Below are positions 4,966 to 59,769 of a stretch of DNA of 64,000 bases, one piece after another. The first letter of the stretch is position 1, and each line of letters begins with the position of its first letter. The translations under genes were made by a program, and so were the position numbers. A model generated the notes under the pieces. It saw only the letters and a list, made by a program, of their open reading frames with translations. It had not been told where the DNA came from and made no database searches. The stretch comes from Pseudogymnoascus verrucosus (Eukaryota): the NCBI GenBank assembly GCA_001662655.1, contig KV460244.1; one strand, 5' to 3'.

Positions 4966-6279
4966 ATGGTAAGCTTCTTCAGTCACCCCACCCCGCAGCT
5001 CCGATTCTTCGCCGCTGGAGTCGACTGACATCCACAGTTCAACCCCGACTTCTTCGACGCCAACGACCCGGCGCAGATGTACAACATGCTCCAGTCCGGA
5101 GCTATGCGTGGAGCGCCCGCGCGGCGCTTCGATGAGTACTATCGCTGCTATCCTACCGTCATGATGTCCGGGCCAAATCGCGACTACCTGAACTACGGAG
5201 GGAAGATAATTATGCCACCATCGGCACTGGACAAACTCACGAGGTTGCATATTACATATCCGATGCTGTTCGAGCTCATCAACAAGCCGAAGAAGGCACA
5301 AACACATGCCGGAGTGCTGGAGTTCGTGGCGGAGGAGGGGAAAGTGTATCTACCACAATGGGTGAGCATCCCACCCCCACTACCATCTCCCCAGTCGCCT
5401 TACTGACCCCAATAGATGATGAACACGCTACACCTCGAAGTCGGAGACCTAATCCAGATCAAATCCACAAACCTCGCAGACGCCAAGCTCGTCAAGTTAC
5501 AACCGCAATCCCCCACCTTCCTCGACATCAGCGACCCCAAAGCCGTCCTCGAGAACGCCTTCCGAAACTTCTCCACCCTCACCAAGGGCGACATCTTCAG
5601 CTTCCACTACAACGACACTGTCTACGACGTCGCCGTCCTAGAAGTCAAGCCCGAGAGCGACAAGATGGGCGTCAGCATGATCGAAACAGACGTCGAAGTC
5701 GACTTTGCCGCACCAGTCGGCTACGTCGAGCCCGAGCGGACAAAGGGCAGCGGCACCAGCACACCCCGCAGCACCAAGGGTGGCGTACCCGCCGGTGGCC
5801 TCCTCCACAACCAAGGCACAATGGCGCAGTCCATAAACTACGACGCCATCTCACCCAACTCCACCGCCGCCACATCAGGCGCCAAAGCGGTGTCCTCCAA
5901 CTTCCTCCTCGGCGGACAGAAGCTGAATGCGAAGAAGGGTGGCAAAGCACCGACACCAAAACCATCAACACCAGTCGCGGGCGCATCGACGAACGCCCCC
6001 GAGGCCGCAGCCGCGATCGCGAGGTCGAGTGGCCCCCAACCTCTCCGCCTGCCGCCTAATAAGCTCTTCTTCGGATACGACATCAAGCCGCTAAAGACAG
6101 AGGAGGATCGCGAAAAGGAGAACGCAGACGCCATGCAACCCGCGTTCGCAGGGCAGGGACAAACGCTCCGCGGAGGCGTGAAGCGGAAGGGCGACAACAC
6201 AGAGGAGGCGAGCAAGGAGGAGGCACCCAAGAAACCGGAGCCGAGCGTGGGGCGGAGGCTGGACGGGAGGAAACCTTAG
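4966..6279 (+). CDS. UFD1: Ubiquitin fusion degradation protein Ufd1 (Cdc48 cofactor), 3 exons
   Basis: ATG-only exon 4966-4968, introns 4969-5037 and 5362-5415; RFDEYYRCYP, NYGGKIIMPPSALDKL, THAGVLEFVAEEG, LDISDPKAVLENAFRNFSTLT, ETDVEVDFAAPVGY, SHP-box-like FAGQGQTL. Confidence 0.95.
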
Positions 6280-7859
6280 GATTGAGTCCCCGGTGGGTGG
6301 GATTTGGAGATTTTCAAGTGGCGGGATTTGCTTTTGCGGGATAGGGATAGGGGTCAGGGATTGAGGTGTTGGGATGGGGAGGGATTGACGGACGGGCATA
6401 TGGCTGGTTTGGGAGTGATGATTGGGTTGTCTTTTTTAGTTGGGCAGGAAATACCAATCTTGTTATACATCATCCTTGGCTTGGTTGGTTGGTCTCGTCG
6501 AGGCTATTATCGTCATCTTGCTTGCTTGCTTGCTTGCTTGGTTTTAGCGAAGGAGTGTGTGTATGCTGGCGTATTATGCTAGTCAGCTCAACCAGGTAGT
6601 TGGAGCATCAAATCTCCGGCTTTTCGGAAACTATCATCATCATCAGTCTAGTAATATATCGAACTATGTCACAAGCTTGTTATAGATCCATAACATTCGC
6701 CTACTCTCGCCTACCCTCGCCAACTTTGACAAATCTAAACCCGAAATTACTCAACTCCCCACCCTCACCTCACTCAGCCCAGTTAGTCGTCGAGTCGTCC
6801 CCCCTTCAAGCCTCAAGATCTCCAATCCCACCAAACCACCCTAGCCCCCCTACCCCCCACCCCACCCCGGAACAACCTTCCGCCCGCCGCGCCTGAGACC
6901 TTCGCCTCAACCCCTGCAACTTTACAACATGCACGCACCACCACCACCCATCCCAACTCCACCCATACATCCACCCACCCACAAAAACCATCCACCACAA
7001 CATCCACACAACCCGCCCCGCCCCAACCGCCCGGCCCCTTCCCCGCTCCCCGACCCTGCTGCATCGGGAGGACACACCGCACTGAACGGATGCGCGCAGG
7101 TGTGGTGGTACACATATATGGGAGGTGATGGAGGGGGTTATGGTGGGCGGGACGGTGCGGCGGTGGCGGTGGTTTTGTGCGACGGGTAGGTGTGGGATTG
7201 GGAGAGCGGTGTGGCAGTGGAGGTGGTGGTGGTAGTGGGATGGGATGGGATGGTGGTGAGGCGGATTTTATAGAAAAATGAATGCAAGATAATACTTTGG
7301 GTTTGTATGATACGATTAATCACAGGAGCTTGAGAGTGAAAGTGGACGTAGGTTTGATGTACTGTATCTCCATTGAACGCGCGTGCTGATCTATACCATC
7401 CCATCCTCCTCTGGCCGTGTATACCGATCTGTTTCTCATCCACCATCATCATCATTTAGTAGTATATCTATTTCCCAGGCCTGGTATATTAACTCCCCCC
7501 ATCCATCCATCCATAAACACCACCCTGAGTGTATGGCCATTCATTATACCTCATATCTCCAATCGTAAAAACGTAGAAAGCAAAAAAGAGACAGAAACGA
7601 AAAGGGAGAACAGACACTAGTTGTAAAAATCAAATATAAACTCCATTCTCAGCTTTTTTTCTTCGTCTGGCAGTAACTCCTAGCCACTTCTCAGAGAGCA
7701 ACCATCACTGGGAAGTGGGTGAAAATCGAGGGTCCGTAATAACGAAAGGCATCATGCCAAACCGTGAAATGAAACCGATCAGACGTAAAGACTAGACCTA
7801 GACCTCGTTAGTTCTCATCATTCTCATACACTCAAACGTAGTGGAGACGAAAAAACAAC

Positions 7860-8768
7860 TTACTCCTCATCCAAGTCCACAAACTCCTCCTCGCCGCTCA
7901 GAGACTCCATCTTGAACTGAGCCGCAGTCTGGCCTCCGAACGCAATGCCATTGATCTCCTTGAAGCCGCCATTCTCCTGATCCTCCTTGACTACGTCGCG
8001 CTTCCTCTTCTTGCTCGGCGTGGCAAAGTCCTCAGCCTCCTCGTCATCGACATTGTTGTCCAACTGCTTGGGCTTGCGCGAGGCGGGGGTTTTGGGCGTC
8101 TTTGGGGTTCTGGGCGTGCTGGGGACGCTGCCATTGGCGCCGGTGTTGGAGGCTTTGCGGAGCTTTTGGAAGTGCTGGCTGGGAGGTGTTAGTTGGTTGT
8201 AATGTGGATTGCGGGATAATAAATTCGGGGACTATGTGCAGGGTAAAAAGGTTTAGACGTAGTGAGGCTGATAACTGTGGGGACTTTGCGTGGAGAGAGG
8301 TGGGAAGAGAGCTGCGTGGGGCTGGAGAGATCAAACGCGAAGAGAGAACAGTGATAAATCAGACAGTTTCCATAAAACAGAACTGCTGGGGAGAAAACAC
8401 GAAGAGGGGACAGCGATAAATCAGAGAGTTTCCATAAAACAGAACTGCTGATTTTAATTTGCATAAAAGAAAGGTAGGCTGCTGATGAAGATAGTGCTAT
8501 GGTAAAAGTCGGTCTCAGATCGAACTACAGCGCTGATAGACGTGCAGTTATAGTGAAACCACATATAAAAGTGGTGAAATTATGCTGAAGACAGATGAAG
8601 GAACGACAAAATAACATACCGACAGCCTTCATGAGAGAAGGAGTAGTTCTCGTTCTTGGTGGCCATCTTGGCAGCGATAACGCGCCAGTCCAGACCCTGG
8701 AGCTTGTTCTCGTCGATGATGGCGAGCAGGAGGTCGCGGTCAGCTTCAGGAGTCCATGGAGAAGGCAT
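7860..8768 (-). CDS. Array gene A: small SANT/Myb-like domain protein (~155 aa), 2 exons
   Basis: Exon 8768-8620 (MPSPWTPEADRDLLLAIIDENKLQGLDWRVIAAKM...SHEGCR), intron 8619-8179 (GTATGT...CTAAC...CAG), exon 8178-7860 (QHFQKLRK...TPRTPKTPKTPASRK...EEEFVDLDEE*); splice keeps the frame (468 nt). Confidence 0.82.
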
Positions 8769-11471
8769 GGTGATGATGATTGTGAATTAGTTTGCAGTGG
8801 TTGTTTGTGAGTGAGAGTAATGCAGCGAGGCAAATTGCAGGTGCTTTGAGGTTTGAGGGAGTAGATGTAGGTGGAAGGTTGCAGTTGTGGTTGTGGTTGA
8901 TGGAGGGGCTGGTTGTAGGGTGTGAGGCGGGGTGATAAAGAAGAACGCGGAGGCTGGTAAAGTGCGAAGGGAGGACGGTGGCAGTGGCAGGCAGTATCTG
9001 GGACGAACGAAAGATACTTGGTAAAGTGCGTGCAGATGTGAAGGGACGCGTCGCGGGGGGATGGAGGAGGGGAGGATGGCAAGGGATAGATGACGAGCAA
9101 AGAGCGGTAGGAGATGCCTTGTATGGGGAGAATACATCAACTTACTCGATATACTTACTACACTACAGGTCTAGTTTCTACTAAGTTGCAGCAGAGTGTC
9201 TCACCAGTCGCTATCAAGCAGATGCAAAAGTGATATTAACAAGGAAGCTATCTCCTGAAAAGCCTCTGACCGCCGGCCACTGAGCCAATGGCGGTGAGGA
9301 CATGTTTGGGGGATGATGGGATGCTTCTCTCGCGGGGCGTCGTTGAGCGCCCTGGTCGGCGTCAACAATGCGCCAGTGGTGAGTCAGTGTGGCTGATCGA
9401 CGAGGATGCCTGTAGGATGCCTGTAGGCTCCTTCTAGGTGGTTGCAGGGCTGCTTCCAGGTGGTTGAAAGGTGAGAGGTGCAAAGATGGGCGCAAGATAT
9501 GATATGAGGGGATTGGACAATGGACGAAGAGGATGGGTGGACGACGACGGCCCTTATGCAGGCACTGATACACTGACTAATGCAGGAAGATGCAGGAGGA
9601 TTGTATCTGTAGTACAGTCTTCCCCCGCATGGTTGTCGGTATGTGGCATAGTCTGGATAGTATGCATACTATCCAGACTATTCGCATGTCGATTCCCGTA
9701 GATTTGCCCCCAGTTTGTACAGGAACATGGTCTTTCCGTGGTGATGGTTCGTGGTGGTTCGCTGTGGTTCGTGATGATGTTGTACGTGCCCCGCTGCTGC
9801 CTGATGTCTACCTGATTTGTTTTGGTTTCTTCCCTGCAAGACCGTAACAAGAGGCGCATATGATCCATGCATTTGGGTTCTATTCTCCGAAATAATAGCA
9901 GGGCGAGAACGAACTAGGTAATACCTGCATAGTGTGTCCAGTAATGTATGGTATCTGATAGTAGTGTGATAGTATTTTCCCGGCATTTCCTGCGCCGACC
10001 CGGCGAGCTGGGTTGTTACTCCTCTCTGTCCAGGGGGAACGTCGTCCCAGCCACCGGGAACGGGGCGGGATATCCGGCTGAACTATATTACACCGCACTA
10101 TAGCACTATAGCACCCTTGTTTACAGTAACAGTACTATAATACCTCGTATGTAAAATGCCTGTAAGATGCCTGTAAAATGCGGCCATCACTTTGTTTCGC
10201 CAAGCTGGGGACGCCATGAAATGTGATAGCTATGTGATAGCTATGAGACAGCTATCTTTGCGCATTAAATTCGGGAGATTAACTAGATAATCAAGGCTGC
10301 ATAACACATTCCCACACAACATATTATATAGCCATCGTAAATATAGCTCGCCCGGAGAAATACAGCCTCACCTCAGTCGGAGAAGAGAGGAGAAAGGGAG
10401 AAAAGGGGGAAACAAAATCATGGGGCTGGGGAGAAAACATCTCCAAGCGATAGGCGAAGGGACATGCACGTATGGATGGAGTACTTGTCTAACCCCGGCA
10501 GTCCCTGCCACTAGCCATGTAACTACCACTACCAGCGGCACTAACACACACCCATGTCGCTTAGCGCGCTTGTCAATCTGCGCAATCAATCCCCATCCAT
10601 CTCTCCCATCCATGTACTCTCCCTCCACCTCCTCCCACCTCGCTCCTTCCATCTCCATGCTCCATATCCATGCCTCATATCCATACCTCATATCCATGCC
10701 CCATATCCATATCCATATCTCATATCCATACCTCATATCCCTCCCCCCATCTCCCTCTCTACCAAACGAACACCTATCACCGCCACCATCAATCGCCGAA
10801 ACCATCTCCACTCCCTTACCACTTACATTCAAACCCCCACCATTCCTCGCTATGGACATATCCCTCACTCCCTCCCTCCATCCTCACCTCCCCTCCCCCT
10901 TTCCTCCTCCTCCACCCTGCCAAACCCCGTCCTTTCACCCCACGCCAAACCCTTCTGCAACCATCCGATGCTCCTCACCCCCCATTCGCTAATCTTCATT
11001 CATGCATCGCTCCGCTCCCTAGCCCCTCTGCTTCGATCCCGGGACGTCCCCGCGGGACCCCTTCCCTCTCTTCCCTCCACCAAACCCCCTGGCGAACCCT
11101 GCCGATCTCCGCCCGCCCCATGCCGCCCAGCTAGACATGCCATCGTGAACGAGAGACAGATCCCCCACCCGATCCCCCCACCATGCTTGCCCTGCGCCGT
11201 GCCAGCAAACCCGACCCACGCTCTCCCTTTCACCATCTTTCACATATCAACAGCAGCCTCCTCCCATCCTGTCGTGACCCTCCCCCACTCATGGACATTC
11301 TCACTTTGCTGAACTTTCTTCCTCAAAATCTGCACCACCTGAACATCCCGCCCACCGCCGCAGAACTTACACCGCATACGCTCGATCGACACTTTACGCT
11401 ACAAACCAACCCCACCACCCCTTGCGTCCAACCCCAAATCCATCACCCTGGCATCCCTACGACGTTCCACC

Positions 11472-12362
11472 ATGCCGAGTGAGGCACAGATGGCGAAGTT
11501 CATGTACTACATCGTCAAGCAGCTCGATGTGCGGAGTGTAAGTTTTTCCCCTCACCCCACTCCAAAAAAAAGACAGACACTAACACATCACCAGGTCGAC
11601 TGGAACCTCGTCGCGAGCGACATGGAAATCACCAACGGCCACGCGGCCCGCATGCGCTTCGCCCGCTTCAAGAACCAGATGGAAGGCACAGTCCCCAAAG
11701 CCCGCGCGCCCCGCGACAAATCCCGCGCCCCAAAAGCCAAGCGCGTCAAGACCAAGGACGAGAAGAAGGAGGAGGACGGCGGCGAGAAGGCCTTGCTGAA
11801 ATTGAAACTTGAAGAGGGTGCCGCCGCCGATTCGGCTCCTGCCTCAGGGGAGCCCGCGGAACAAGCTCTGGCCAGGTCGCCGGCAGTCAAGCCAGAGCCA
11901 GCGGACGACGTCGTGCTCGGGGATGCGGATGCGCCAGGTGAGGCGGTCAACGAGAGCGAACTCCCAAAACAAACCACGCACATGTCTCACACACCCTCTC
12001 ACTCGCCGCCGAACTCGACCAACCCGACGCCATCACATTCCCTCGCAACTCCCACGCACCTCCACGGATCGCCCTACCACCACCTCTTACCAGAGCCACG
12101 TCGGTCCTCTGTCAACTACTCGCCCGCCTCCAGCTACACCTTCTCCCCGCACGAGATAATGTCCTCCCAGGGCAGCATGTTCATGCAGTCCATGGAGGGT
12201 GTGGGGTCGCAGGATATGGGGATGGCGCCGACAGCCGCATTTTATGATCCATTCCTGTATGTGTTGCCTCAGTCACATCAGCAGCAGCAGCAGCAGACGC
12301 TGGTGGATGCGCAGGGGAGACTGGTGAAGGGCGAGCTTCAGTGGGATACGTCGTTTTGTTGA
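11472..12362 (+). CDS. Array gene B: Myb-like domain protein (~277 aa), 2 exons
   Basis: Exon 11472-11537, intron 11538-11594 (GTAAGT...CTAAC...CAG), exon 11595-12362; spliced KFMYYIVKQLDVRS^VDWNLVASDMEITNGHAARMRFARFKNQMEG, then a basic and a S/P/H/Q-rich tail. Confidence 0.85.
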   Translation: MPSEAQMAKFMYYIVKQLDVRSVSFSPHPTPKKRQTLTHHQVDWNLVASDMEITNGHAARMRFARFKNQMEGTVPKARAPRDKSRAPKAKRVKTKDEKKEEDGGEKALLKLKLEEGAAADSAPASGEPAEQALARSPAVKPEPADDVVLGDADAPGEAVNESELPKQTTHMSHTPSHSPPNSTNPTPSHSLATPTHLHGSPYHHLLPEPRRSSVNYSPASSYTFSPHEIMSSQGSMFMQSMEGVGSQDMGMAPTAAFYDPFLYVLPQSHQQQQQQTLVDAQGRLVKGELQWDTSFC

Positions 12363-14226
12363 TGGGTGTACTGAGCGAGATGAATAATGAATCGGCGGGC
12401 GGGATTAATAAAATCCTGACGTTAGCAACGTCAGATGGGATGGGTGGGTAATATGGGTTCGTGGTGGAGTTTTTGCATCGGGTGACGAAGGTGGTCATTT
12501 TCATGTGAGCTTGTAGGTTTTTTGTGTGTGTTTTGAGTTTTTTTGTAATCACGGATACCATAGCATAGATCGTTTTGGATTTGGAAATAATGATGGGAAT
12601 TAGATTAGATGGATGGAAGGGAGCTAGAGTCGCTGATAACATCGTCCCGGTGAGGTTGGCAATTGTTTGTGGCAAGAGACAGACGACATAAATCACATCG
12701 CTGAATTTGTTCAATTGCACGCCGAAGGTTGGTTTGTAGATGCTTAACTTTGGTTTCAAGTTCCGTGATTTGGGGATCGCGAGTCATTGTTGTGATGATT
12801 TGAAAAGGCTTCTACGAAGGTCGAGGTTCGTTGACAGAAGTAGACAAACATTATCTTTCGAGCTAATTCTAATTAGTATGACTTTATTTCATGAAATAAA
12901 GTCATACCAATTAGAATTAGCTCTAAAATAACAGGGGCAGAGGTAGCTGGGCAACGAATAATGCTCCTCGGTCACACTTGTTAGTTGAGGACCAACGACG
13001 GCATGATGTAGGTTTCAGCCAGAATTAATCTTGTCGCCTTAGTAGGGCAGTTCTACTGTCTGGAGAAAGCTCTCTGAAGAAACCCTGTCTGAATAAGAAA
13101 GTAATCAATGTAATATTTGTCTTACGAGATGTGCTCAAACAAGCAATGTGCTCCAGGATTTGGAAATTGGATATGTTGCTGCTCTTATTTCTCGGGGGTT
13201 GATATGAAAATAGTAATCCGCACTTCGAGATGTGTTCTCATTTTAGCTCAGATAGTGAAAGAAATGAAGACCAAACCCACAAGGTGGTTTATAAAACAGA
13301 ATGCTAGATGACGACAATTCTTTTCTGCTTCCATTTCGTAAAATTTGCCTTTGCAGGATAAATAAGCATTAAGAAATTTAGAGTTATATTACTGGTGAAT
13401 TTAAAATATAATTTAGAAAACTGTTGTCTTCGGGCCCGAATAGTCCTCAAAATAACACAGAACAAACAACACAGCACCGGAAGACTCGAAAGGCTTCTCC
13501 AGAATATATCGGATACTGATCTGGAAAGAACTGCCATTGTCTACCAATCAACCGTCTTCTTTCGATTTCTATAATATCAACCATACAAACACAGACCGAG
13601 TGCTCTGGACTTCCCGAGTCCAAACCATACAAATTGCAGGAGAAGCTGCAGGAGAAACATCTATTTTCTGACCGCCCTTCTACCGCAACTCTTCGCTTCG
13701 AGGCCTATAAATTCTACCTTCCACCCACAACCGTTTTCAAACATTCCATCCACAATACACCTCACAAACATCAATCCACTTGCTCCTGCTTTGGCCTTTT
13801 GTCATTGCAAGGCCTTTATAATTTGCAAATCAAACCATTCAATACAAAAAGTAAGTTGCATTCCCATATTCTCACTTCGAGCAATGAGCCTCAGCCAGTC
13901 TGGTTCATATGAACCACACTTGGTTGAATTCCACCTCTGAGTTATACTTGGACTTTCTTCAAAGACAGGCTAGTGATTACTTCTACATCTATCAAAGATA
14001 TCTGCTTGAGCATATACAAGTGGAACATCAAGTTGGCGGCCATCACTTCACAACTGCAACAATCATAGTCTCACATTTTCACCTCGAACCTTGCTCACCA
14101 AACAACCTACTCTACAAAACATATCATTTCACATTCCAGACTGCTAACTATTTCAAAAGTCTCATCATCCACCACAATTAAAACCAGCTCAACAGTCAGC
14201 TTCGATCTTTGCATCCAACCATCAAG

Positions 14227-14959
14227 ATGTCTGGACAACCACCATCCTCTCCGGCCCAGCCTGGCGCCACTCGCGTCCCAACTCCACTGGAGTGCAACTT
14301 CCTCGTGGCCATTGTCAAGAACAGTGATGGAGTCACCAACGTAAGCTTTCTTCCATACAGTCATCGGCTTTGTTTTGATTTCTCTGTCACTCCTCGGGAC
14401 ACTCTATTGTGAATTATCATAAATTCACCCACACCAACAACGGCCCGAAAACTCCTCATTTTCCTGGCATTATCTCTCCTCTTCTTGAAATCACAAACAC
14501 AATTTTTCAGTCTTCCTAACAACCCCACAGATCGACTGGGACGCCGTGGCCAGCGAGGCCGGCTACAACAACGCCGCCACAGCCCGTGTCCGCTTCGGCC
14601 AGGTCAAGAAAGCCCTCGGCTGGACAGTCCGCGTCGTCGGCTCCAAGGGCAGCCCAATCAAAAGCCCCACCAAGGTCGAGAAGAAGCCTGCCAAGCCCAG
14701 GGCGGCCCGCAAGCCAAAGGCCTTGACGAAGAAGCAGCAGGAGGCCTTGGCTGCGGCTGTGGATGATGACTCCAATGACAATGAGCAGGAGGATGCTGAT
14801 GTCTACAAGGAGGAGGATGATGCCAATGGCCACAAGAAGGAGTTTGGCAATGGCTACAAGCAGGAGCATGACGAGGTTGTCAAGACCGAAGACGTCGATG
14901 AGGATGCCGATACGGCGGTCGAGGAGGAGGAGTACGCCTCCGCTGACGACTATGCCTGA
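14227..14959 (+). CDS. Array gene C: Myb-like domain protein (~180 aa), 2 exons
   Basis: Exon 14227-14340, intron 14341-14530 (GTAAGC...CTAAC...CAG), exon 14531-14959; spliced NFLVAIVKNSDGVTN^IDWDAVASEAGYNNAATARVRFGQVKKALG, then SPIKSPTK, Lys-rich linker and acidic tail. Confidence 0.85.
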
Positions 14960-16567
14960 AGGCTTGCGGGAATCTGATTTACTATCCAGAGCCTGGGAGA
15001 ACAGTTGATGCTTCACACCCATCTGATTGTTTTCGCCGCGACGCTGGGGTTTCGGTGCATTTGATTGCAATTTCTGCATATTTTGTAAGTTTTCTATTTC
15101 CACATCTCCTGGACTGGATTCTATCGAGCATACACTAACGCGGAAACCACTGCAGATTTCCAGGTTTACACATTCACGGTGAATCTGAAGGCGGGTCCGG
15201 AAACCTGCATATATCACAACAACATCGTACTGGGTGGATGGGCGCATTGCGAATGTTTCTTTTCGATCTGATTATATACTCTGCGGTATGACATGGATAG
15301 GATGGGGTGAGAAGGGATGGGCGCATGGCAGTCTTTAAGATAGGAATGAAACCGCGTTTTTCGATAACTGCAGTGATGCCTTCACCTGTGACGAGACCAA
15401 AATCCGTATTTAGTATTTTGCCTCATTTGAAACACCGCAGATTTTGTGTGAGGAGGGCCGGAATGCTTGAAACGAAAGAATGCTCTTGGTGTAGAACTCG
15501 GCATTATATAAAATGAGAGTGACGAACTCATCGAGTCTTGTATTTACAAAGCAAGGCACTGGAAGACTCGAATAGTTTGTAAATGGCCATGAATGGGGTT
15601 TCCTCTGGTGCATGTTCCTGGAGAAAGAAATTGTCAAAACATGTTTTTATATCACAATTACGACTTGTCAACGGTCTCTGTGGCCACCCCGCACTGCCCC
15701 AGCCTACTATTTCTATTTCCGCTGACTTTGGATACCGAAGGTGAGCACTGGGACGTCTGAATAATCATGCTGTCTGTGATAATACTGCGGCTGTGGTTTA
15801 GTCTCTGGCCTTGCACAAGGCAACGAAAGTAGATGGTTGGCGGTCAGAAACATTGTCTCGAAAGAATGCAGAGTTGCAGGGGACTGAGTCAACCTGCCCC
15901 TCGTATATAGAGCAATAAGTGACTGTGGAATACCCTTATTTATAATTTTAAAGGGGAGATGGGATAGCACAGTGTCAAATGGAACGAACTAGCCACATCA
16001 AGTGCGGAATTTGGGATCTGTAGTGAAGTGGCACATGAAGCATGGTTTGTAAAAGAAAGGTGAGTGGACACCAGTGGCCAGGTTGGAAACATATGAGAAT
16101 GATATGGATCTTCTCTTTGGGCGAATCAAAGAGAATGGTCTTAATAACAGGAAAGTAAAAGTGAACCTTTGATTATCTAAGGAAGACGTAAATGAACCGG
16201 AATATTCCTATACAAATCTATGAAAGACTGAAGCCGCTCGAAGCACTGAGTGCAGCCGCAAAATCCCCGGTTGCCTCGGAGCCTCCAGATATAAATACCC
16301 AGGTTGGCTTCTTACTGACCTTAATTCTTTCATCACCAACAACACCAAGCAAAAACACAACAATCAGTGGCTCCACCACACTTGCTCTTGTTCAATCACT
16401 CCGAAAAGGAAACATAAGCTCCAGGTATGTGCAAGACCCAAAAGAAGCTGGTGGCAACCATTCGATTTGGACCTCGACTCACTTGCTTTCTTCAACCTCA
16501 CCTGAAACTATACTAAAACAGCCACAGCTTGACTTCACCATTCCTCAGAAACAGGAACATCGCCAAG

Positions 16568-17275
16568 ATGCCATCCAAGGTACGCAACATCATGAACGAA
16601 ACCCCCAACGGCAATGACTGACCTGAACCAGAAGCTTGACACTGTTGCTGAAGGTGTTGCTGACACCGCCGGTTCCGGCATGCGCGCCGATGATGTCCTG
16701 TTCTTGATCGATTGCCTCCATAACAATACGGGTGGCCAAGTCCAGGTAAGCAGCCTTGAAACTCCTTTATCTAAACACCGAGCTTGTCATATCGAGTGCT
16801 GTGTTGAGACTGAACACTCACCACACCTATCATATACTAACATTTCACTCAGATCGATTGCAGCGCGGTTGCCAAGAAGCGCAACATGGCCAACCCCAGG
16901 TCCGTTGCAAACCGCATCGCTATCATGAAGAAGAAGTACGGCTTGCCCCTCGCCGCCAGCACAGCCAAAGTTGCTGCTAAAACCAGCGATGTCGTCGACG
17001 GCAACAACGATCTCGCCATTGGCACCCAAGCTTCCCCTGTCAAGCGTACCGCCAAGAAGAACGCAGCTCGCAAAGCCCAATACAAGATTGCCAAGCGTGA
17101 GGAAACCCGCGCCCAGAGTCTTTCCGACAACAATGTCGACAAGGACCATCAGTCGGCCATGGACACCGATGAAATGGAGAAGGTGGTCTTTGGGAACCCC
17201 GATGATGATGAGGAGAATGATGACCACCAAGATGGCATGGAAGCTATGGTCAACGGCAACCACGACATTGTCTGA
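16568..17275 (+). CDS. Array gene D: divergent Myb-like domain protein (~182 aa), 3 exons
   Basis: Exons 16568-16579 (MPSK), 16632-16745, 16853-17275 with GT-AG introns and CTRAC branch sites; spliced DVLFLIDCLHNNTGGQVQ^IDCSAVAKKRNMANPRSVANRIAIMKKKYG, SPVKR, acidic tail. Confidence 0.78.
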
Positions 17276-18461
17276 TCTTTTCAATCGCCTCTTGGCCAGC
17301 GGCCTGGGCATTAACTTCCAACTTTCGAGTTAAGAGGCGGTTTCTATTTCTTTTGACGCAACATCACCCCCCCCCTCGCAAGGGCTGGACATATGGGAGA
17401 CGAGCAGTTGCACTAGGCGGAGTTATATCAGATGGATATTCGATGCCTAATATTTTCCCTTCATAAATGGGATTTAATGAGATAAGATTTGATCTTCCAA
17501 TCGTCTTGGTGCAATGATTGAACATAATTGTACTTGTGTTTCAAGAAGAGTCTTCAAAATAAGCCAAGGCCATGTAGGTTTGTGTAGATATGGAAAGGCT
17601 ATGCTGGTCTCTGGCCTGATGGCGAACGCCAGTGAATGCCGGACATGTTTGGGATTCATTATCCGACCAAATGCAGTTTGCCAACCCAACCCGACCATAA
17701 ATCTTACATAATGAATCATTTGAAGCCCCGAAGTAATAGCGGTGGCAGCTCAGTTCGTAATGGTGGTATACCTTCACTTTATAGTAATACCAAAAATGTT
17801 CAACATGGAAGGATAGATTGAAGCATCAACTCCGGGCCTTCTCAAAGTAGACGTGTGACGTTTCTACTGTGCGCCATGGTAACGACTTCATAATGCACCA
17901 TTCCATATGCTGCATAATGACCTTTAATACACATCCAATGCACATGTCCGAAAGGAACTGGGTGAACGTTATGCCGCCGTCACGCTTGCCAGTTGAATGT
18001 TTGCCGGAATTATTGCATACAGTGCATCCGAGCTCGCACGAACCTCTTTTTGACTGATTGAGCATATTTCCAAAGCGTAATCGTAGGTGCAGTAGTTCAC
18101 ATATATTCACATTGGAGTTTGTTATTCCCGACGTTGTTGTAAGCTGATATATACAACAGTGGCATCTCAGACTTTGCTGCAAACTCCGTGTTCGTTTCCT
18201 GGCATTTGACCAAGTCGGTGCAGGTCCTGCTTTCATACTTAAAACCAAATATATCCGCCAAGCTCAGGCCAACTCTTCAGTGTGGAGCAACATATATTTT
18301 GGACTTCAAGCATCCACAAGCACTTTCTTCCTTCACATCAACACACCTGCTTCGGTCGTCAAATACTTTCTTCTGTCGCATCCATATACCTGCTTCTAAC
18401 AACACTTGCTCGACAACACTTTCCAGAGCTCAGTTGCAAGTCATCCACGGATATCATCAAA

Positions 18462-19002
18462 ATGCCACCAGCTACAAATGAAGAGCAGTTCCGCTTCCTC
18501 ATCTCCTGTATCCGTTGGTCAAACAATGGCAAGGTATTAAACTCATTTGATTTTACTGGCAGCTCATTGCTGACTATTTCCACAGGTTGATTTCACAGAA
18601 GTTGCCAAAGAGTGCCAGGTGGTGAGCAAAGGTGCAGCGTAAGTCAATCTCCATTCCCAGTCTTCCGGCCATATTTGATGGTGACCTTGATAATTTTTAC
18701 TTACGACCGGATGCAGCGCAAAGCGATATGAGCGTATGATGCGCGCTCATGGGATACACCCCAACGGAGGTCCCGGAAGGGCTCCAACTGCTCGCCAACC
18801 AAAGACAGAGCGCAATGCAGGACCATCCCCTACCAAGAAAGCAAAGGGAAAGGCCGCTGCGTTTGATGAGAGCATGAACGTTGACGACGACGAGGAGCCG
18901 GCGGGCAGCGACAACTTCAAGGCGGAGAACAGTCAGGATGAGGAGCTTCTCGTCATCAAGTCCGAGCAGTTCTACGAAGTCCCAGACCTCCAAGATGATT
19001 GA
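18462..19002 (+). CDS. Array gene E: Myb-like domain protein (~136 aa), 3 exons
   Basis: Exons 18462-18533, 18586-18638, 18717-19002; spliced MPPATNEEQFRFLISCIRWSNNGK^VDFTEVAKECQVVSKGA^AAKRYERMMRAHGI...SPTKK...acidic tail; frame intact (411 nt). Confidence 0.85.
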
Positions 19003-20060
19003 GGGGTTGGAAAGGTGATCGGCTGCCGAGTTGTGGCTCACAAAATTTCCCATCCATGCAAATGTTTCTATGATTTCATGGTTTGAGTTGAGGGGTGGGA
19101 AAGTTGACCGGGTGCCGAGTTGTGGCTCACAAAATTTCCCACCCAAAGCAAGTTTTTCTCTGATTTGATGGTTTGAGGCGGAACATACTTTTGCACATGA
19201 GGGGATGATATGTGTCTTTGTGAACTGCAGATAGTGACAGTTACAGATATTAATCAGACACTTCTGCTCTGTTTCCACAAAGTAAATATTCGTGGGGACT
19301 TAAAAGTGATAATTGCCATTCGTAGTTGCCGTGGATACCCACAAAGATATGCAGACTCTATTCTTGACCACGACCAACTTAGTCGCAGCTCAATTTTTGG
19401 GGCAGGGTGCGAGAAATTCCAACGCGAGAGTCTTTTGAGGTGCGAGAGTGTTTGTAAAGACAATAATGAATAATAGCGCCTCACTTTCTCAATTGCGTTC
19501 GCGAAGACTGGGACCACGAGGCGTCGTCTCAGTTAAGCGGCGACCCATCTGTAAACATTGTCTGCTTTCTTCAATGCTGCCACAATAGCAATTACACAGC
19601 AATTGCAACTGGTATCTAGAGTCCCTCTAGCGCTGCTCAATTAGGTACGTAGATCGAGTTCTTGTCATCACCAATCTTGCTGTCACTTCCTCTGTATTCT
19701 TGCTCTTGGTCTTGCTTCAGGCTCTGGGGCTGGCCTCGATCTGGTGTCCACTTCATCACTCTTCACCTTGCCTGCAACCACCAGTTCATTTAGCTTGCCC
19801 CTCTTCCTTCACATCCATTTCACCTTCACTCATAGCTGATCATAAAGGCCACTATTCGTATATGCTCTTCGCTAGATAAACATTCCACATCTAGGTGAGG
19901 TCCTGGGAGCTCCATTCGACATTGAGATTCCAATTCACCTGGCTTTCTTGACGACGTCGTGGATAACATAGCTAACTCTGATACCAGCTTTCAAGCTTAT
20001 TGCCCTAGACCCCAACCAACAAGTCGTTTTATCGAGTACCGTAAACTCGAATCAATTGCC

Positions 20061-22400
20061 ATGGCTCCAGTAAAAAAACCCAAGGTCGGGACCAAATCCG
20101 CCACTGGTTCCGAAGCAAAGAATACGATTGCTCGCCGCAGGAACTCAGCTGCGAAGGTGGCTGTTGGACGCCCTACTTCCAGATCGCCCCAAAAACGCCC
20201 CGCCAAAAGCAACGAAGATGATGGCGTTGGGGACGATGAACCTCCTTATGAGCCAAGCGATGATGAGATTGATGGCGATAGCACTGAAGGAAACTTTCAT
20301 TCCAGTCCAGTTACTAAGGCCACAAAAGGTAAGAAGGGTCCAGTGAAGTCTGCCAAAAAGATGATCTATAAGAAACACCTTCGAAGAGACGCAACAAAAT
20401 TTACGACTAGCCAGGCTATGGTCGATGCGGAGGAGGAGTTCGATCCTCGTGCTGCTGCGTATCGGGGGAAGGCGACCCAGAGTGGCGGAAACGGACGTAA
20501 GAAAGGTCGGAGGCTCATTCGCTGGACCGGTAAGACTCCCGCCCGAACCATGCAAGTGTATCCGAAGCTAACAAACCTCGCATTAGCCCAAACGGACCAG
20601 TTGTTGTTGCTTTGTCTCCACCATGAACTGGCCCGGAACAAGGAAGAACTTCCCTATGAGGCTATTGCTCAACGCATGTTCCCCGAAAAAAATGCCACAG
20701 GTGGCGCTATCAAGGAGCGATTCGCGAAGCTTCGCATCGAGTGCTTGAATAGGGGTTCGTGGGTGCCACCTATTCTTGGCAAGACCCCACAGAACACTCG
20801 ACCAGACGTCCGAGGCGTTGTTCGTCTCGCACCAGGAATTGACAAGGGCCGATTCGTTCTTTGGAAAGAGGATGCATCCAAACTCATCGACCCCAAGGAT
20901 ATCAACAAGGGCCACGTCGATGCTCAAAAGAAGGGTCTTCAATACTCCGAACGTGTGTGGATCAGCCCGGGGGCAGAGAAGGAGTACCTGAAATCAACGC
21001 ATGCCCATAAAGCGTTGAATCTTTCTCCCATTTCTGGTCCAGTTCCAATGGATGATGATGAGTTGCTCTCGGACGAGGATGAGGAGGAAGAGATGGAGGC
21101 AGTATCAGATGATGGTGCTGTCGTACCCTGCACGCCGAAAAAGCGCAAGGCTACTGTTATCAACGACTCTTCAAAGAAAAAGCCCAGACCAGTTGCTCGT
21201 CCAAGCCCAAAGAAGATTGCTGCCAAGGGGCGGGCGACGCAGGCCGATGAAAGCGAATATGAGGGCACCACAGCTGGCGCAGGTAGCAACAGGCTTTCAC
21301 CAAAGAAGGAGCCTGGTGCTGGTCGATACAGGAGCCCTAGGGGTAGACCCAAGAGCTATGATATGACACCGCCTGACGAAGATTCGGATTCCGGCGCTAC
21401 CAAAACGGCCGAGTCGAGTGATGAGAGCGAGGATGACGAGAGTCCCACCAACAACCGACTGATGATGATGGCATTTGAAAAAGACGAGGAGGTTAGACCC
21501 CTCAGGTCCATCGTTATTGTCCGTGGGTTTACTCCTGGTGCTCTCAGCAAGTTTCCGCCTGGCATCCAGGGCCCTGGGGACGATGACTATGCGGACGATG
21601 AGGTAGCTGAGGGTCCTGGCATCCAGGGCCCTGGGGACAATGATTATGCCGACGACCAGGTCGCTGAGGGTCCCACCGCCTCATACAATGGAAGCGAATC
21701 TGTAATCGATGCAGATGATGATAAAGCCGCTCTCCATTTTGAAGACAACCCAGATATTGAATTTGATGATAGCATACACGGAGTCGGACAAGATGGCTCG
21801 ATGGACGAGCAAAATTTCAACCTCCAGGATCTTCTTGCTGCCATGAACCGGAACACGGACAACAACGGACAATTGATCAATAAAGATCTCTGGGAGATCC
21901 ATGTGGAGCAAATGAATGCACTCAAGGGGGCCGGGATGCAAAATCCACCTCCTGCGCAGTCACGCCACCAGACTCAGATCCCTCAATATATACAGCACCA
22001 AACACAAAACCAGCTCACTCCTAATGGATTTGGCTCTTTCCCGGGCAACTTTGGAGGCCCTCAAGTCAGCTTTGGTGGTTCTAAAATCCGCTTTGGCGAC
22101 ATTGATTTTCAACCAATGCACTCAGATGGAATTCAGGGAAAGGCCGCTTATTACAACACCAAGAACTTCATTGAAAACGGCATGATCGATACAGCTCAAT
22201 ATGAAAAGATGAAAGGAATGGAATCCAACTCAAGTGGCCATATCAAACCAGACCCTGTTCCAGCAGGATTTTCGGGGTTTGACGCCACCATACCGCCAGT
22301 GCGAGACGATGAGTTCTTCTCACCTGACTACGTAGGAGGTGGTGAAGCCTCCTTAGATGGCGGCTTTGGGCCCTTGGGTCCATTGGAAGGTTACTTTTAG
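20061..22400 (+). CDS. Array gene F: large (~760 aa), mostly disordered protein with a Myb/SANT-like domain and an AT-hook, 2 exons
   Basis: ATG 20061 (MAPVKKPK), intron 20530-20586; spliced RRLIRWT^AQTDQLLLLCLHHELARNKEELPYEAIAQRMF...GGAIKERFAKLR; PRGRPK at 21336-21353; TPKKRK/SPKK motifs; acidic tracts. Confidence 0.8.
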   Translation: MAPVKKPKVGTKSATGSEAKNTIARRRNSAAKVAVGRPTSRSPQKRPAKSNEDDGVGDDEPPYEPSDDEIDGDSTEGNFHSSPVTKATKGKKGPVKSAKKMIYKKHLRRDATKFTTSQAMVDAEEEFDPRAAAYRGKATQSGGNGRKKGRRLIRWTGKTPARTMQVYPKLTNLALAQTDQLLLLCLHHELARNKEELPYEAIAQRMFPEKNATGGAIKERFAKLRIECLNRGSWVPPILGKTPQNTRPDVRGVVRLAPGIDKGRFVLWKEDASKLIDPKDINKGHVDAQKKGLQYSERVWISPGAEKEYLKSTHAHKALNLSPISGPVPMDDDELLSDEDEEEEMEAVSDDGAVVPCTPKKRKATVINDSSKKKPRPVARPSPKKIAAKGRATQADESEYEGTTAGAGSNRLSPKKEPGAGRYRSPRGRPKSYDMTPPDEDSDSGATKTAESSDESEDDESPTNNRLMMMAFEKDEEVRPLRSIVIVRGFTPGALSKFPPGIQGPGDDDYADDEVAEGPGIQGPGDNDYADDQVAEGPTASYNGSESVIDADDDKAALHFEDNPDIEFDDSIHGVGQDGSMDEQNFNLQDLLAAMNRNTDNNGQLINKDLWEIHVEQMNALKGAGMQNPPPAQSRHQTQIPQYIQHQTQNQLTPNGFGSFPGNFGGPQVSFGGSKIRFGDIDFQPMHSDGIQGKAAYYNTKNFIENGMIDTAQYEKMKGMESNSSGHIKPDPVPAGFSGFDATIPPVRDDEFFSPDYVGGGEASLDGGFGPLGPLEGYF

Positions 22401-23543: not shown

Positions 23544-25464
<1,921 letters not shown>

Positions 25465-42003: not shown

Positions 42004-42570
42004 CAGTGTTCCCCAAAATAGTAAGAGTATTTGTGGTTTTCGAATAGTATTCGGCGATGAGCAGTATTCAGGCCATATTTGGAGTATTCGGCGAGTATTT
42101 GCCTAGATCTCGAATAGTATTCAGGCCCTCGAGTCCTTAGCGCTAAGATGCCAAGCTACGAAGATTTTACCCCGCCCTTATAGATAGATCTATAGAAATA
42201 GATCTATAGATACTATATTACTTAATATTTCTACTAAAATGAGCAACTCTAAGCTATTAGCGATTCTAAGTAACGAAGATGAGGATATATAGCGCCTACT
42301 ACCCCTTTTTCTAGAGTCTTCGCTGTTAATAGCTCTACTATTAGTATAAATACAACTACAACTCCTAAATACTTAGTTACTGTTGTTCTTAAAGAATGTA
42401 TTTAGTAGAACATTGTTAAGCACTAGCCCTACAACAATAAAGATTGTCTACATATAAGATAGCTGTAATTATAGGCTAAAGCTAAAGCTTTTAACATAGA
42501 ATATTACAAGTAATTTATAGAGGCATGTTAAGAGCATGCACCCTTTATTATATAAAGCTATAAAACTAGG
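42004..42570 (+). mobile_element. hAT-like DNA transposon terminus with RIP-degenerated 5' transposase remnant
   Basis: Starts CAGTGTTCCCC immediately after the AtuA-like stop; subterminal (A)GTATT(C) repeats 42020-42125; stop-riddled AT-rich sequence follows. Confidence 0.55.
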
Positions 42571-42579
42571 ATCTTATAA

Positions 42580-59765: not shown

Positions 59766-59769
59766 CTAG

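What the first reader, a model, noticed from the sequence alone, without database searches (positions are those of the whole stretch)
7860..22400. Hidden six-gene array of divergent single-SANT/Myb-like proteins between UFD1 and HSP60
Seen: six consecutive genes, nearly invisible in the ORF track because introns cut their only folded domain. Spliced domains align: A WTPEADRDLLLAII..GLDWRVIAAKM..SHEGCRQHFQKLRK; B KFMYYIVKQL..VDWNLVASDM..NGHAARMRFARFK; C NFLVAIVKN..IDWDAVASEA..NAATARVRFGQVKK; D LFLIDCLHN..IDCSAVAKKR..NPRSVANRIAIMKK; E RFLISCIRW..VDFTEVAKEC..SKGAAAKRYERMMR; F WTAQTDQLLLLCLHH..LPYEAIAQRM..TGGAIKERFAKLR. I found no other gene between them; A is divergent from B-F, which are co-oriented. 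Established: this three-helix pattern is that of Myb/SANT-like helix-turn-helix domains (from memory, closest to the fungal Pfam family Myb_DNA-bind_8; needs verifying). Inference: the paralogs are too divergent to be recent duplicates, yet they stay clustered among housekeeping genes with long (1.1-2.7 kb) intergenic regions. That suggests an old, co-regulated cluster of chromatin/DNA-binding proteins, possibly subunits of one complex or a developmental regulatory module. I know of no functional description of it.
Basis: partly seen in the sequence, partly recalled or inferred. Interest (0 to 1): 0.92.

Follow-up and report, generated by a model that had tools for sequence, protein, structure and literature searches.

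The report
Six neighbouring fungal Myb-like genes
Six neighbouring genes in a Pseudogymnoascus fungus all encode proteins with a small Myb-like three-helix domain; four are old tandem copies of one unstudied fungal family, all six are already annotated as hypothetical proteins, and their function is untested.

Summary
Between UFD1 and HSP60 lie six genes, A on the minus strand and B-F on the plus strand. A and C are letter-identical to P. verrucosus VE01_07721 and VE01_07723.

The six are not one family:
- B, C, D and E are members of Pfam PF22980 (Myb_DNA-bind_8). They share a phase-0 intron just before the [VI]D[WCF] motif.
- A is a small Myb/SANT-like protein below every Pfam cut-off.
- F (760 aa) has a very conserved core of about 150 aa. 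It belongs to a fungal family with no Pfam model (142 representatives).
- Profile comparisons link A to B-E (85%) and A to the F family (91%), but not F to B-E directly.

The gene order is kept across the genus, shown by consecutive locus tags. D, E, F and HSP60 are still linked in two more distant contigs. B has orthologs in Fusarium and Neonectria, so the copies are old.

In P. destructans cultures, C-E are almost silent and the six show no shared expression pattern. I found no paper on them. An E-F complex prediction gave only weak support.

Verdict: a real, old, annotated but unstudied array, probably of nuclear DNA- or chromatin-binding proteins. Moderate interest.

The parts
7860..8768 (-). 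Gene A. It encodes a 155-aa small Myb/SANT-like protein with exons 8768..8620 and 8178..7860 and a 441-nt intron inside helix 3. A further 72-nt intron (7863..7792) may add the residues DLYV at the C-terminus.
   Evidence: - The spliced product equals P0024 (VE01_07721).
- Pfam hits are all below cut-off: Myb_DNA-bind_4 18.9 bits against 27, and PF00249 12.4 bits against 24.4.
- hhalign to B-E gives probability 85%, E 6.2e-6. hhalign to the wide F family gives 91%, E 9.6e-7.
- 5 of 8 aligned orthologs end in (D/E)(L/I)YA.
8769..11471 (.). A 2.7-kb spacer between the divergently transcribed genes A and B. It is pyrimidine-rich and contains 13-nt periodic repeats at 10635-10750.
   Evidence: - GC skew is -0.37 at 10-11 kb.
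- Repeats were found.
- The longest ORF in the spacer has no Pfam hit.
11472..12362 (+). Gene B. It encodes a 277-aa PF22980 protein and has a 57-nt in-frame intron (11538..11594) just before VDW.
   Evidence: - The nearest annotated protein, P0001, scores 58.8 bits for PF22980.
- Orthologs reach Fusarium equiseti and Neonectria punicea.
- The domain is 99% conserved within the genus, against 80% for the rest of the protein.
14227..14959 (+). Gene C. It encodes a 180-aa PF22980 protein and has a 190-nt intron (14341..14530) just before IDW.
   Evidence: - The product equals P0023 (VE01_07723), which scores 46.4 bits for PF22980.
- The tail is +6 in its first half and -18 in its second half.
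16614..17275 (+). Gene D. It encodes a 184-aa PF22980 protein and has a 107-nt intron (16746..16852) just before IDC.
   Evidence: - The ortholog P0036 scores 28.3 bits for PF22980, just above the cut-off of 27.
- Exon 2 scores 54.8 bits against my own B-E profile.
- The D-like copies in L002 and L001 have the intron at the same place.
18462..19002 (+). Gene E. It encodes a 136-aa PF22980 protein with two introns (18534..18585 and 18639..18716). It is the best-conserved of the small genes.
   Evidence: - The ortholog P0035 (VC83_00684) scores 79.8 bits for PF22980.
- The same three-exon structure is found in L001 and L002.
- tblastn identity to L002 is 65-75%.
20061..22400 (+). Gene F. It encodes a 760-aa protein and has a 57-nt in-frame intron (20530..20586) just before its Myb-like helices. 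The conserved core lies at about 20358..21032 (residues about 100-305).
   Evidence: - Annotated orthologs are spliced the same way, and 70 columns of the alignment are invariant.
- No Pfam family was found.
- A profile of the core finds 142 representatives at E <= 1e-3.
- The AlphaFold2 model of the core has mean pLDDT 80.9.
5029..6279 (+). Upstream flank: the UFD1 gene.
   Evidence: Pfam UFD1_N1 scores 115.2 bits and UFD1_N2 scores 116.5 bits.
23893..25407 (+). Downstream flank: the main exon of the mitochondrial-type HSP60 (Cpn60) gene.
   Evidence: - Pfam Cpn60_TCP1 scores 188.4 bits.
- The protein is 96% identical to the HSP60 next to F in L001 and L002.

Best explanation
**What it is.** The locus is an old, vertically inherited neighbourhood of Myb-like genes in Pseudogymnoascus and related fungi. 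Its centre is a head-to-tail array of four paralogs (B, C, D, E) of Pfam family PF22980 (Myb_DNA-bind_8). The array arose by ancient tandem duplication: the four genes point the same way and share an intron position. The copies have since diverged to 19-40% identity within the domain.

**The two outer genes.** The array is bracketed by two genes whose products carry a related three-helix pattern but belong to other families. A is a 155-aa Myb/SANT-like protein. F is a 760-aa protein whose conserved core of about 150 aa starts with the three helices and continues into a beta-hairpin and further helices.

**Likely mechanism (inferred, not shown).** Each small protein has:
- a three-helix domain with a basic third helix;
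- a lysine/proline-rich stretch with SPxK/TPK-type motifs and nuclear-localisation-like clusters;
- an acidic tail.

From this I infer nuclear proteins that bind DNA or chromatin through the helix domain and the basic stretch. The acidic tail would modulate that binding or contact histones or partner proteins.

**Expression and clustering.** In vegetative culture of the sister species P. destructans, C-E are almost off. They probably act in a stage or condition that has not been sampled. The clustering itself is most simply inheritance of a tandem duplication plus slow rearrangement. It need not reflect selection for a shared function.
For: **Shown**
- The gene models match the annotated proteins.
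- B-E pass the PF22980 cut-off.
- A phase-0 intron lies immediately before [VI]D[WCF] in B, C, D and E. The D-like and E-like copies of L001 and L002 have it at the same place.
- A domain tree places B (100/99), E (97/89) and D (91/90) each on one side of a branch. The L001 and L002 copies fall inside D and E.
- B orthologs occur in Fusarium and Neonectria.
- Locus tags are consecutive in several annotated genomes: VC83_00681-00684 for B-E, VE02_08512-16, VE03_08255-50, V493_06958-54 and V501_08010-14.
- L002 has D-like, an extra paralog, E-like, F and HSP60 in the window's order and orientation. L001 has E-like, D-like, F and HSP60 linked but rearranged.
- Within each orthogroup the domain is better conserved than the rest of the protein: B 99 against 80%, C 86 against 73%, D 86.5 against 76%, A 84 against 76%.
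- Tails are basic and then acidic: C +6/-18, D +6/-14, E +5/-13, A +1/-7. KKRKR-type clusters are present.
- Profile links: A to B-E probability 85%, E 6.2e-6. A to the wide F family 91%, E 9.6e-7.
- The F core folds with mean pLDDT 80.9 into three helices, a hairpin and further helices.
- Expression of the P. destructans orthologs comes from supplement File S1 of PMC12113139 and supplement s03 of PMC5810475.

**Inferred**
- DNA or chromatin binding, from the Pfam family's name and the charge pattern.
- Nuclear location, from the basic clusters.
Against: - No experiment on any family member was found, so the DNA or chromatin binding is untested.
- I did not predict a structure for B-E or A. 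Their fold rests on Pfam membership (B-E) and on profile alignment (A).
- F is not significantly similar to B-E directly: hhalign E 0.17, 0.084 and 0.003, with probability at most 10.5%.
- The F-core model has no clear match among solved structures: Foldseek best E 0.56 and VIA-align best Z 4.1. Its 'Myb-like' start is therefore not structurally confirmed.
- D is only just above the Pfam cut-off (28.3 against 27).
- None of the six P. destructans orthologs appears in the held proteome supplement of PMC13208438.
- That all six consecutive genes carry this helix pattern is hard to credit to chance. It may mean more than passive inheritance.
Confidence: 0.6

Rival explanations
1. This is the first reader's view: a functional module. 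The six genes stay together because they are co-regulated. Their products would work together, for example as subunits of one stage-specific chromatin complex with F as the scaffold.
For: - Six consecutive genes with the same helix pattern are unlikely by chance.
- The linkage of D, E, F and HSP60 survives in two contigs whose HSP60 genes are only 79-86% identical in DNA to the window's.
- Earlier notes of this scan report PF22980 arrays in other ascomycetes (unchecked leads).
- Complex prediction for the F core with E gave 'weak support':
  - Score 0.47, best of 3 controls 0.00; the three runs gave 0.49, 0.00 and 0.47.
  - The runs agree in at least 3% of their contacts, and the partner's pLDDT is at least 42.
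  - The mark was reached by 51 of 78 solved complexes and 2 of 108 mismatched pairs.
  - At 0.60 or under, it was reached by only 5 of those 78 solved complexes and by all 4 mismatches that passed (of 180).
  - The tool states that such a pass is more often wrong than right unless the guess was likely beforehand.
  - Its alignments were not used.
Against: - In 21 P. destructans cultures the orthologs' levels span about 90-fold. Pairwise Spearman correlations are mixed: A-C 0.61, D-E 0.52, A-F -0.55, and most others near 0.
- No shared promoter repeat was found between the spacers.
- In L001 the order and orientation differ, so a strict operon-like layout is not needed.
- Tandem duplicates stay adjacent by default.
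- Among neighbouring genes drawn blind, 7 of 44 pass the complex test.
Confidence: 0.15
2. Only B-E belong together. A and F would be unrelated genes that happen to contain a generic Myb/SANT-type three-helix motif. The 'array of six' would then be an array of four plus two coincidental neighbours.
For: - A and F have no PF22980 hit.
- Their introns are at other positions: inside helix 3 in A, and before helix 1 in F.
- F against B-E is not significant.
- The F core has about 100 extra conserved residues that the small proteins lack.
- F's relatives are a separate family with no Pfam hit in 0 of 33 scanned.
Against: - A aligns in the expected register with B-E (85%) and with the F family (91%).
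- Even the non-significant alignments of F to B-E fall in the correct helix 2-3 register.
- Single-Myb-like genes are a small fraction of a fungal genome (my estimate, not counted here). Both flanks being of this kind by chance is therefore improbable.
- E-F adjacency recurs in L001 and L002.
Confidence: 0.2
3. The small genes would be domesticated or decaying copies of a transposon-borne Myb/SANT-like DNA-binding gene, as in PIF/Harbinger elements (a comparison recalled from memory). On this view they multiplied by transposition rather than by tandem duplication.
For: The only support is a general resemblance of PF22980 to MADF/Myb_DNA-bind_4-type domains. A's best Pfam row is Myb_DNA-bind_4 at 18.9 bits, below cut-off.
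Against: - No transposase ORF, terminal inverted repeats or target-site duplications flank the genes.
- Orthologs sit at the same place in many genomes.
- The intron positions are conserved.
- The domains are under constraint.
Confidence: 0.03

Closest known systems
Pfam PF22980, Myb_DNA-bind_8 (fungal 'Myb-like DNA-binding domain-containing' proteins)
   Same: B, C, D and E reach the family's gathering score. They share the family's pattern: FL..I.K...[VI]DW..VA......A..R[FY]...K.
   Different: A and F do not match the family. It has no characterised member that I could find. The name states a fold, not a tested function.
Canonical Myb/SANT repeats (Pfam PF00249) and MADF/trihelix-type Myb_DNA-bind_4 (PF13837)
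   Same: A has the spaced aromatic residues W5, W28 and F53 and a basic third helix. Its best Pfam rows are these two families. UniProt calls the A orthologs 'Myb-like domain-containing'.
   Different: The scores are below cut-off (18.9 against 27, and 12.4 against 24.4). A has a single repeat followed by a disordered charged tail. B-E lack the first tryptophan.
An unnamed fungal family around the F core (hypothetical proteins of Metarhizium, Beauveria, Podospora, Sporothrix, Lasiosphaeria, Amylocarpus and Lecanora)
   Same: F shares the family consensus NGR.GR.LI.W...KLLL..YEC.R....LPWD.IAHRL.PGSSG.A..QHL.RLR..L..EGH.VPP......RGYVR.
   Different: F and its 9 closest representatives form a distinct, much more conserved subgroup (E <= 1e-30). 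The family has no Pfam model (0 of 33 scanned), no solved relative and no described function.
PF22980 arrays noted earlier by this scan in other ascomycetes (e1-7555867, e1-7566228, e1-7565869)
   Same: These are tandem groups of four to seven small, strongly diverged Myb-like genes with charged tails. The earlier notes gave the same closest family.
   Different: They are in other genomes and beside other genes (one lies by CENP-A and ORC2). The notes are unchecked AI notes, and I did not compare the sequences. None reports an F-type gene or HSP60 next to the array.
Linker-histone or HMG-like architectural chromatin proteins (analogy only, recalled)
   Same: Both have a small DNA-binding fold, then SPxK/TPK-type basic repeats, then an acidic tail.
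   Different: There is no sequence or fold relationship. This is a comparison of layout, not of family.

Membership tests
Pfam PF22980 Myb_DNA-bind_8 | The whole-protein score reaches the gathering cut-off of 27 bits (genes B, C, D, E). | tested here: met
   - B-like P0001 scores 58.8 bits.
- C (P0023, identical to the window's protein) scores 46.4 bits.
- The D ortholog P0036 scores 28.3 bits.
- The E ortholog P0035 scores 79.8 bits.
- D and E were tested on near-identical orthologs, not on the window's own spliced products.
Pfam PF22980 Myb_DNA-bind_8 | The whole-protein score reaches the gathering cut-off of 27 bits (genes A and F). | tested here: not met
   - A (P0024) has no PF22980 row at E <= 1.
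- The F exons and the spliced F orthologs P0082, P0093 and P0098 have no PF22980 row.
Pfam PF22980 Myb_DNA-bind_8 | A three-helix Myb-like fold. | not tested
For B-E the fold rests on the family assignment only.
Canonical Myb/SANT repeat (PF00249) | A score above 24.4 bits and three regularly spaced aromatic residues. | tested here: not met
   A scores 12.4 bits, although W5, W28 and F53 are visible in the sequence. B-F have no row for this family.
Tandem paralog array (B-E) | Same family, same orientation, adjacent, with a shared intron position. | tested here: met
   No gene lies between the four, as shown by consecutive locus tags.
Homeodomain-like / Myb fold for the F core | The model superposes on solved Myb, SANT or homeodomain structures. 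| tested here: inconclusive
   - The model has mean pLDDT 80.9.
- The Foldseek best E is 0.56.
- The VIA-align best Z is 4.1. Rows for the Oct4 POU homeodomain give Z 3.5 (rmsd 4.2 A over 51 residues) and Z 3.1.
Co-regulated functional gene cluster | The members are co-expressed. | tested here: inconclusive
   Only one usable data set was available, from the sister species P. destructans (21 cultures). Levels differ about 90-fold and correlations range from -0.55 to 0.61. No developmental series was available.
Hetero-oligomeric complex of cluster products | Physical binding between members. | tested here: inconclusive
   - Only the E plus F-core pair was tried. The verdict was weak support: score 0.47, best control 0.00.
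- The mark was reached by 51 of 78 solved complexes and 2 of 108 mismatched pairs.
- At 0.60 or under, it was reached by only 5 of those 78 solved complexes and by all 4 mismatches that passed (of 180).
- The runs agree in at least 3% of their contacts, and the partner's pLDDT is at least 42.

The most novel reading that the evidence does not exclude
The block of PF22980 array, F gene and HSP60 is a selectively maintained unit that is widespread in Pezizomycotina. On this reading the large F protein, through its unmodelled 150-aa core, recruits the small Myb-like proteins (at least E). Together they form a stage-specific chromatin or transcription complex that is silent in vegetative mycelium. 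The recurrent PF22980 arrays seen in other ascomycetes would be versions of the same system.
Probability: 0.12. Interest if true: 0.7.

Novelty: new member of a known kind. Interest (0 to 1): 0.35.

Why it matters
PF22980 proteins and the F-type family are common in filamentous ascomycetes, yet none has a tested function. This locus shows three things. Such genes can persist as an ordered array over long evolutionary times. The array is bracketed by two further Myb-like genes of other families. Its central members are nearly silent in culture. That gives a concrete target for finding out what these small nuclear-looking proteins do: a six-gene block with a weak computational hint of an E-F contact. 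As it stands it is a tidy annotation result, not a new mechanism.

Tried and rejected
- **RNA evidence for the junctions.** The look-up of sequencing runs listed no RNA holder. The one run listed (X1) proved to be DNA contigs of a relative about 3-4% different. It covers the region from B to beyond F in one 11.7-kb record. It therefore shows only that the layout exists in a close relative.
- **Whole genome.** None is held. I could not count PF22980 genes elsewhere in this genome.
- **Extending L001 and L002.** The records are not held for the genome search. Whether the B-like protein P0016 lies on L002's contig rests only on the equal contig length of 109,802.
- **First AlphaFold2 run of the F core.** With 10 sequences it gave pLDDT 38.8, and I discarded it.
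- **Fold searches with the good F model.** They gave no clear match.
- **Sequence searches of solved structures.** Profiles of B-E, A and the F core found only chance-level rows, with best E 0.27, 1.5 and 0.1.
- **ESM Atlas for the F core.** The best score was 0.82, a lead only.
- **Rfam and tRNA scans of the window.** Nothing was found.
- **Search for shared promoter repeats between the spacers.** Only short matches of chance quality appeared.
- **Literature.** The full-text library holds 0 papers with 'PF22980' or 'Myb_DNA-bind_8'. It holds 0 with the six P. destructans locus tags. The phrase 'Myb-like DNA-binding domain-containing' occurs in 12 papers, none with a fungal subject in its title or abstract opening. 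A broader four-term search was uninformative.
- **Supplements.** Those of PMC7549942, PMC8788850 and PMC13208438 contain none of the six tags. Some stored files were cut, so absence there proves little.
- **Transposon origin.** I considered and rejected it: there is no transposase, there are no terminal repeats, and the genes have fixed orthologous positions.
- **E+F fusion gene.** P0080 (907 aa) joins the two, but it looks like a merged gene prediction. It splices E's last exon into F's untranslated leader.


Full report
**What is there.** The window is from a Pseudogymnoascus fungus. The spliced products of two of the genes are letter-identical to P. verrucosus proteins VE01_07723 and VE01_07721. 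Between UFD1 (5029-6279) and a Cpn60/HSP60 gene (main exon 23893-25407), both confirmed by Pfam, lie six genes.

I read the splice sites directly and assembled the models in a script:

| Gene | Strand | Exons | Protein |
|---|---|---|---|
| A | minus | 8768..8620 + 8178..7860 | 155 aa |
| B | plus | 11472..11537 + 11595..12362 | 277 aa |
| C | plus | 14227..14340 + 14531..14959 | 180 aa |
| D | plus | 16614..16745 + 16853..17275 | 184 aa |
| E | plus | 18462..18533 + 18586..18638 + 18717..19002 | 136 aa |
| F | plus | 20061..20529 + 20587..22400 | 760 aa |

- A equals P0024 and C equals P0023.
- B equals P0001 apart from a few residues.
- D, E and F correspond to P0036, P0035 and P0081-P0083, which are spliced identically.

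No other gene lies between them. The orthologs' locus tags are consecutive in several genomes. The long intergenic ORFs have no Pfam hit. There is no Rfam family or tRNA in the window.

**Which families.** On spliced proteins, PF22980 (Myb_DNA-bind_8, cut-off 27 bits) scores 58.8 for B, 46.4 for C, 28.3 for the D ortholog and 79.8 for the E ortholog.
- A profile I built from the B-E domains hits only these four genes in the 64-kb window. A's first exon is next at E = 0.09, and everything else is above E = 1.
- A has only sub-threshold rows: Myb_DNA-bind_4 at 18.9 bits against 27, and PF00249 at 12.4 against 24.4.
- F has no family at all, either as exons or as spliced orthologs.

**How A and F relate to B-E.**
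- Profile-profile comparison aligns A with B-E over 50 columns in the expected register (probability 85%, E 6.2e-6).
- F orthologs align with A over the same helices (51%, E 1.5e-4).
- After I widened the F profile to 143 sequences, the link to A rose to 91%, E 9.6e-7.
- F against B-E stays non-significant: E 0.17, 0.084 and 0.003, with probability at most 10.5%. Two of those three alignments fall on helices 2-3.
- Pairwise domain identity is B-C 40%, C-D 30%, A-F 27%, D-E 26% and A-C 26%. The rest are 12-23%.

The six therefore share a Myb/SANT-like three-helix pattern, but they form three groups: A alone, B-E together, and F alone. Intron positions agree with this split. B, C, D and E all have a phase-0 intron immediately before [VI]D[WCF]. 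A's intron is inside helix 3, and F's is before helix 1.

**Gene F.**
- F orthologs have a strikingly conserved core. In a 19-sequence alignment whose members are only 33-47% identical overall to the more distant ones, 70 columns are invariant.
- A profile of this core searched against 1.84 billion representatives found 142 proteins at E <= 1e-3, 25 at <= 1e-10 and 9 at <= 1e-30.
- The wider family shares the pattern NGR.GR.LI.W...KLLL..YEC.R....LPWD.IAHRL.PGSSG.A..QHL.RLR..L..EGH.VPP......RGYVR.
- Of 33 members scanned (out of the 133 non-orthologous hits), none had any Pfam hit at E <= 0.01.
- Nine of the ten clusters I looked up carry names. They come from Metarhizium, Beauveria, Podospora, Copromyces/Pseudoneurospora, Amylocarpus, Sporothrix, Lecanora and Lasiosphaeria. 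All are 'hypothetical' except one, which is oddly labelled 'chaperonin'.
- With 10 sequences AlphaFold2 failed (pLDDT 38.8). With 143 it gave mean pLDDT 80.9 and pTM 0.70. The model has helices at 55-71, 78-85 and 93-110, a hairpin at 129-146, and further helices at 151-154, 158-169 and 182-197.
- No solved structure matches clearly: Foldseek best E 0.56 and VIA-align best Z 4.1. Homeodomain rows give Z 3.1-3.5 over about 50 residues. Whether the F core starts with a true Myb fold remains open.

**Age and conservation of the cluster.**
- Locus tags show the same gene order across the genus: VC83_00681 to 00684 for B-E, VE02_08512/13/14/16, VE03_08255/53/52/50, V493_06958/57/56/54 and V501_08010/12/13/14.
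- A DNA run of a relative about 3-4% different carries B to F on one contig.
- A scan of metagenome contigs with the F alignment matched 230 stretches, of which 2 were confirmed.
- In L002 a D-like gene, an extra PF22980-like gene (P0103, 22.6 bits on the part after its intron), an E-like gene, F and HSP60 follow each other on one strand, as in the window.
- In L001 the E-like, D-like, F and HSP60 genes are linked, but the order and orientation have changed.
- HSP60 DNA identity to the window is 79% for L002 and 86% for L001. F is 44-66% identical and E 44-96% identical by segment.
- The D-like and E-like copies keep the window's intron positions.
- In a domain tree (31 rows, 52 columns, so only coarse), B (100/99), E (97/89) and D (91/90) each form one side of a branch. 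The L001 and L002 copies lie inside D and E. C is unresolved next to B.
- B has orthologs in Fusarium equiseti and Neonectria punicea.
- The duplications therefore predate these splits, and 'old paralogs' is supported.
- Within each orthogroup the domain is more conserved than the rest: B 99 against 80%, C 86 against 73%, D 86.5 against 76%, A 84 against 76%. This argues for constraint on the domain.

**What the proteins look like.** Each small protein is a helix domain of about 45-55 aa followed by a tail. The first half of the tail is basic and the second half acidic: C +6/-18, D +6/-14, E +5/-13, A +1/-7. B's long tail is mildly acidic throughout. Clusters such as KKRKR (A), KRVK (B), KKPAK and RKPK (C), KRTAKK (D) and KKAK (E) are present, and F has KKRK. 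From this and the Pfam family's name I infer nuclear DNA- or chromatin-binding proteins. Nothing here tests that inference.

**Expression.** No RNA run of this organism was available (see Tried and rejected). For the sister species P. destructans I read supplementary tables only.
- In File S1 of PMC12113139 (21 culture libraries, normalised counts) the tags are VC83_00680 to 00685. I assign them to A-F by tag order, gene length and the named hits for 00681-00684.
- Mean counts are 24.9, 8.3, 0.28, 1.3, 1.8 and 20.9.
- Spearman correlations across the samples are mixed: A-C 0.61, D-E 0.52, C-E 0.46, A-F -0.55, and the others between -0.25 and 0.37.
- Only F changed significantly in the one contrast shown (FDR 0.005).
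- Supplement s03 of PMC5810475 has rows for 00680, 00681 and 00685 only.
- The held proteome supplement of PMC13208438 has none of the six.

The genes are thus transcribed at low (A, B, F) to near-zero (C-E) levels in culture. Co-regulation is not shown.

**Complex test.**
- The result was 'weak support': score 0.47, best of 3 controls 0.00, with runs of 0.49, 0.00 and 0.47.
- The runs agree in at least 3% of their contacts, and the partner's pLDDT is at least 42.
- The mark was reached by 51 of 78 solved complexes and 2 of 108 mismatched pairs.
- At 0.60 or under, it was reached by only 5 of those 78 solved complexes and by all 4 mismatches that passed (of 180).
- Among blind neighbouring genes, 7 of 44 pass.
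- The tool itself says such a pass is more often wrong than right unless the guess was likely beforehand. I treat it as a small upward nudge for the complex idea, not as evidence of binding.

**Comparison with what is known.** The closest family is PF22980 itself, which has no characterised member that I could find. Earlier notes of this scan describe arrays of four to seven PF22980-type genes in other ascomycetes, among them a Phyllosticta and Rhizodiscina lignyota. These are unchecked leads, but they suggest that clustering is a habit of this family and not peculiar to this locus.

**Verdict.** The family guess is right for four of the six genes, and the age and conservation of the array are supported. 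The functional reading (a co-regulated module or complex) is not supported by the little data available. The genes are already annotated as hypothetical proteins in public genomes. This is a new, well-described member of a known kind: a tandem array of an uncharacterised Pfam family. Two points are modestly new: the array is bracketed by two other Myb-like genes, and F belongs to a conserved fungal family that still lacks a model. Interest 0.35.

Noticed in passing
window 7779-7864 (minus strand): Gene A's annotated stop codon overlaps a GTAAGT donor. A 72-nt intron (7863..7792, branch-like AACTAAC upstream of the acceptor) would replace the stop with the residues DLYV. Five of 8 aligned orthologs are annotated with the matching ending (D/E)(L/I)YA.
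   Followed up: partly
window 8333-8450: A 62-nt unit is repeated 1.9 times (91% match) inside gene A's unusually long 441-nt intron.
   Followed up: no
window 12856-12927: A 72-nt palindrome (36-nt arms, 94% complementary, no spacer) lies in the B-C spacer. The related DNA run X1 has about 116 other letters in place of 12810-12931.
   Followed up: no
window 9648-9681: A perfect 34-nt palindrome (17-nt arms, no spacer) lies in the A-B spacer.
   Followed up: no
window 18999-19145: A 58-nt direct repeat (91% identical, 89 nt start to start) begins at gene E's stop codon. The related run X1 lacks 89 nt here (19023-19113), so the copy number varies between strains.
   Followed up: no
window 21558-21671: An in-frame 57-nt tandem duplication inside gene F encodes PGIQGPGD(D/N)DYADD(E/Q)VAEG twice. 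The X1 contig 'goes back 33' at this place, which suggests length variation.
   Followed up: no
L002 4895-5809: An extra PF22980-like gene lies between the D-like and E-like genes of the more distant contig. It has no counterpart in the window (P0103, 22.6 bits on the part after its intron). Its first helix looks shortened.
   Followed up: partly
L002 6997-7632; L001 1658-2503; window 18717-19002: The E-like genes of L002 and L001, and the proteins P0067, P0069 and P0075, carry a long extra C-terminal region that ends in a hydrophobic-acidic motif (IVIAD, IIITD, VVVTD). The Pseudogymnoascus E gene stops about 70-180 residues earlier.
   Followed up: partly
protein P0080 (V501_08014): One public annotation merges E and F into a single 907-aa protein by splicing E's last exon into F's leader. 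It looks like a prediction artefact.
   Followed up: partly
protein P0139 (Sporothrix epigloea): A distant relative of F is labelled 'chaperonin' by its source but has no Cpn60 or any other Pfam hit. Because F sits next to HSP60 here, the label might be a slip from a neighbouring gene. I did not test this.
   Followed up: no
window 42001-44000, 47001-52000 and 59001-60000: These are AT-rich blocks (GC 0.29-0.40) in a window that otherwise has GC of 0.45-0.60.
   Followed up: no
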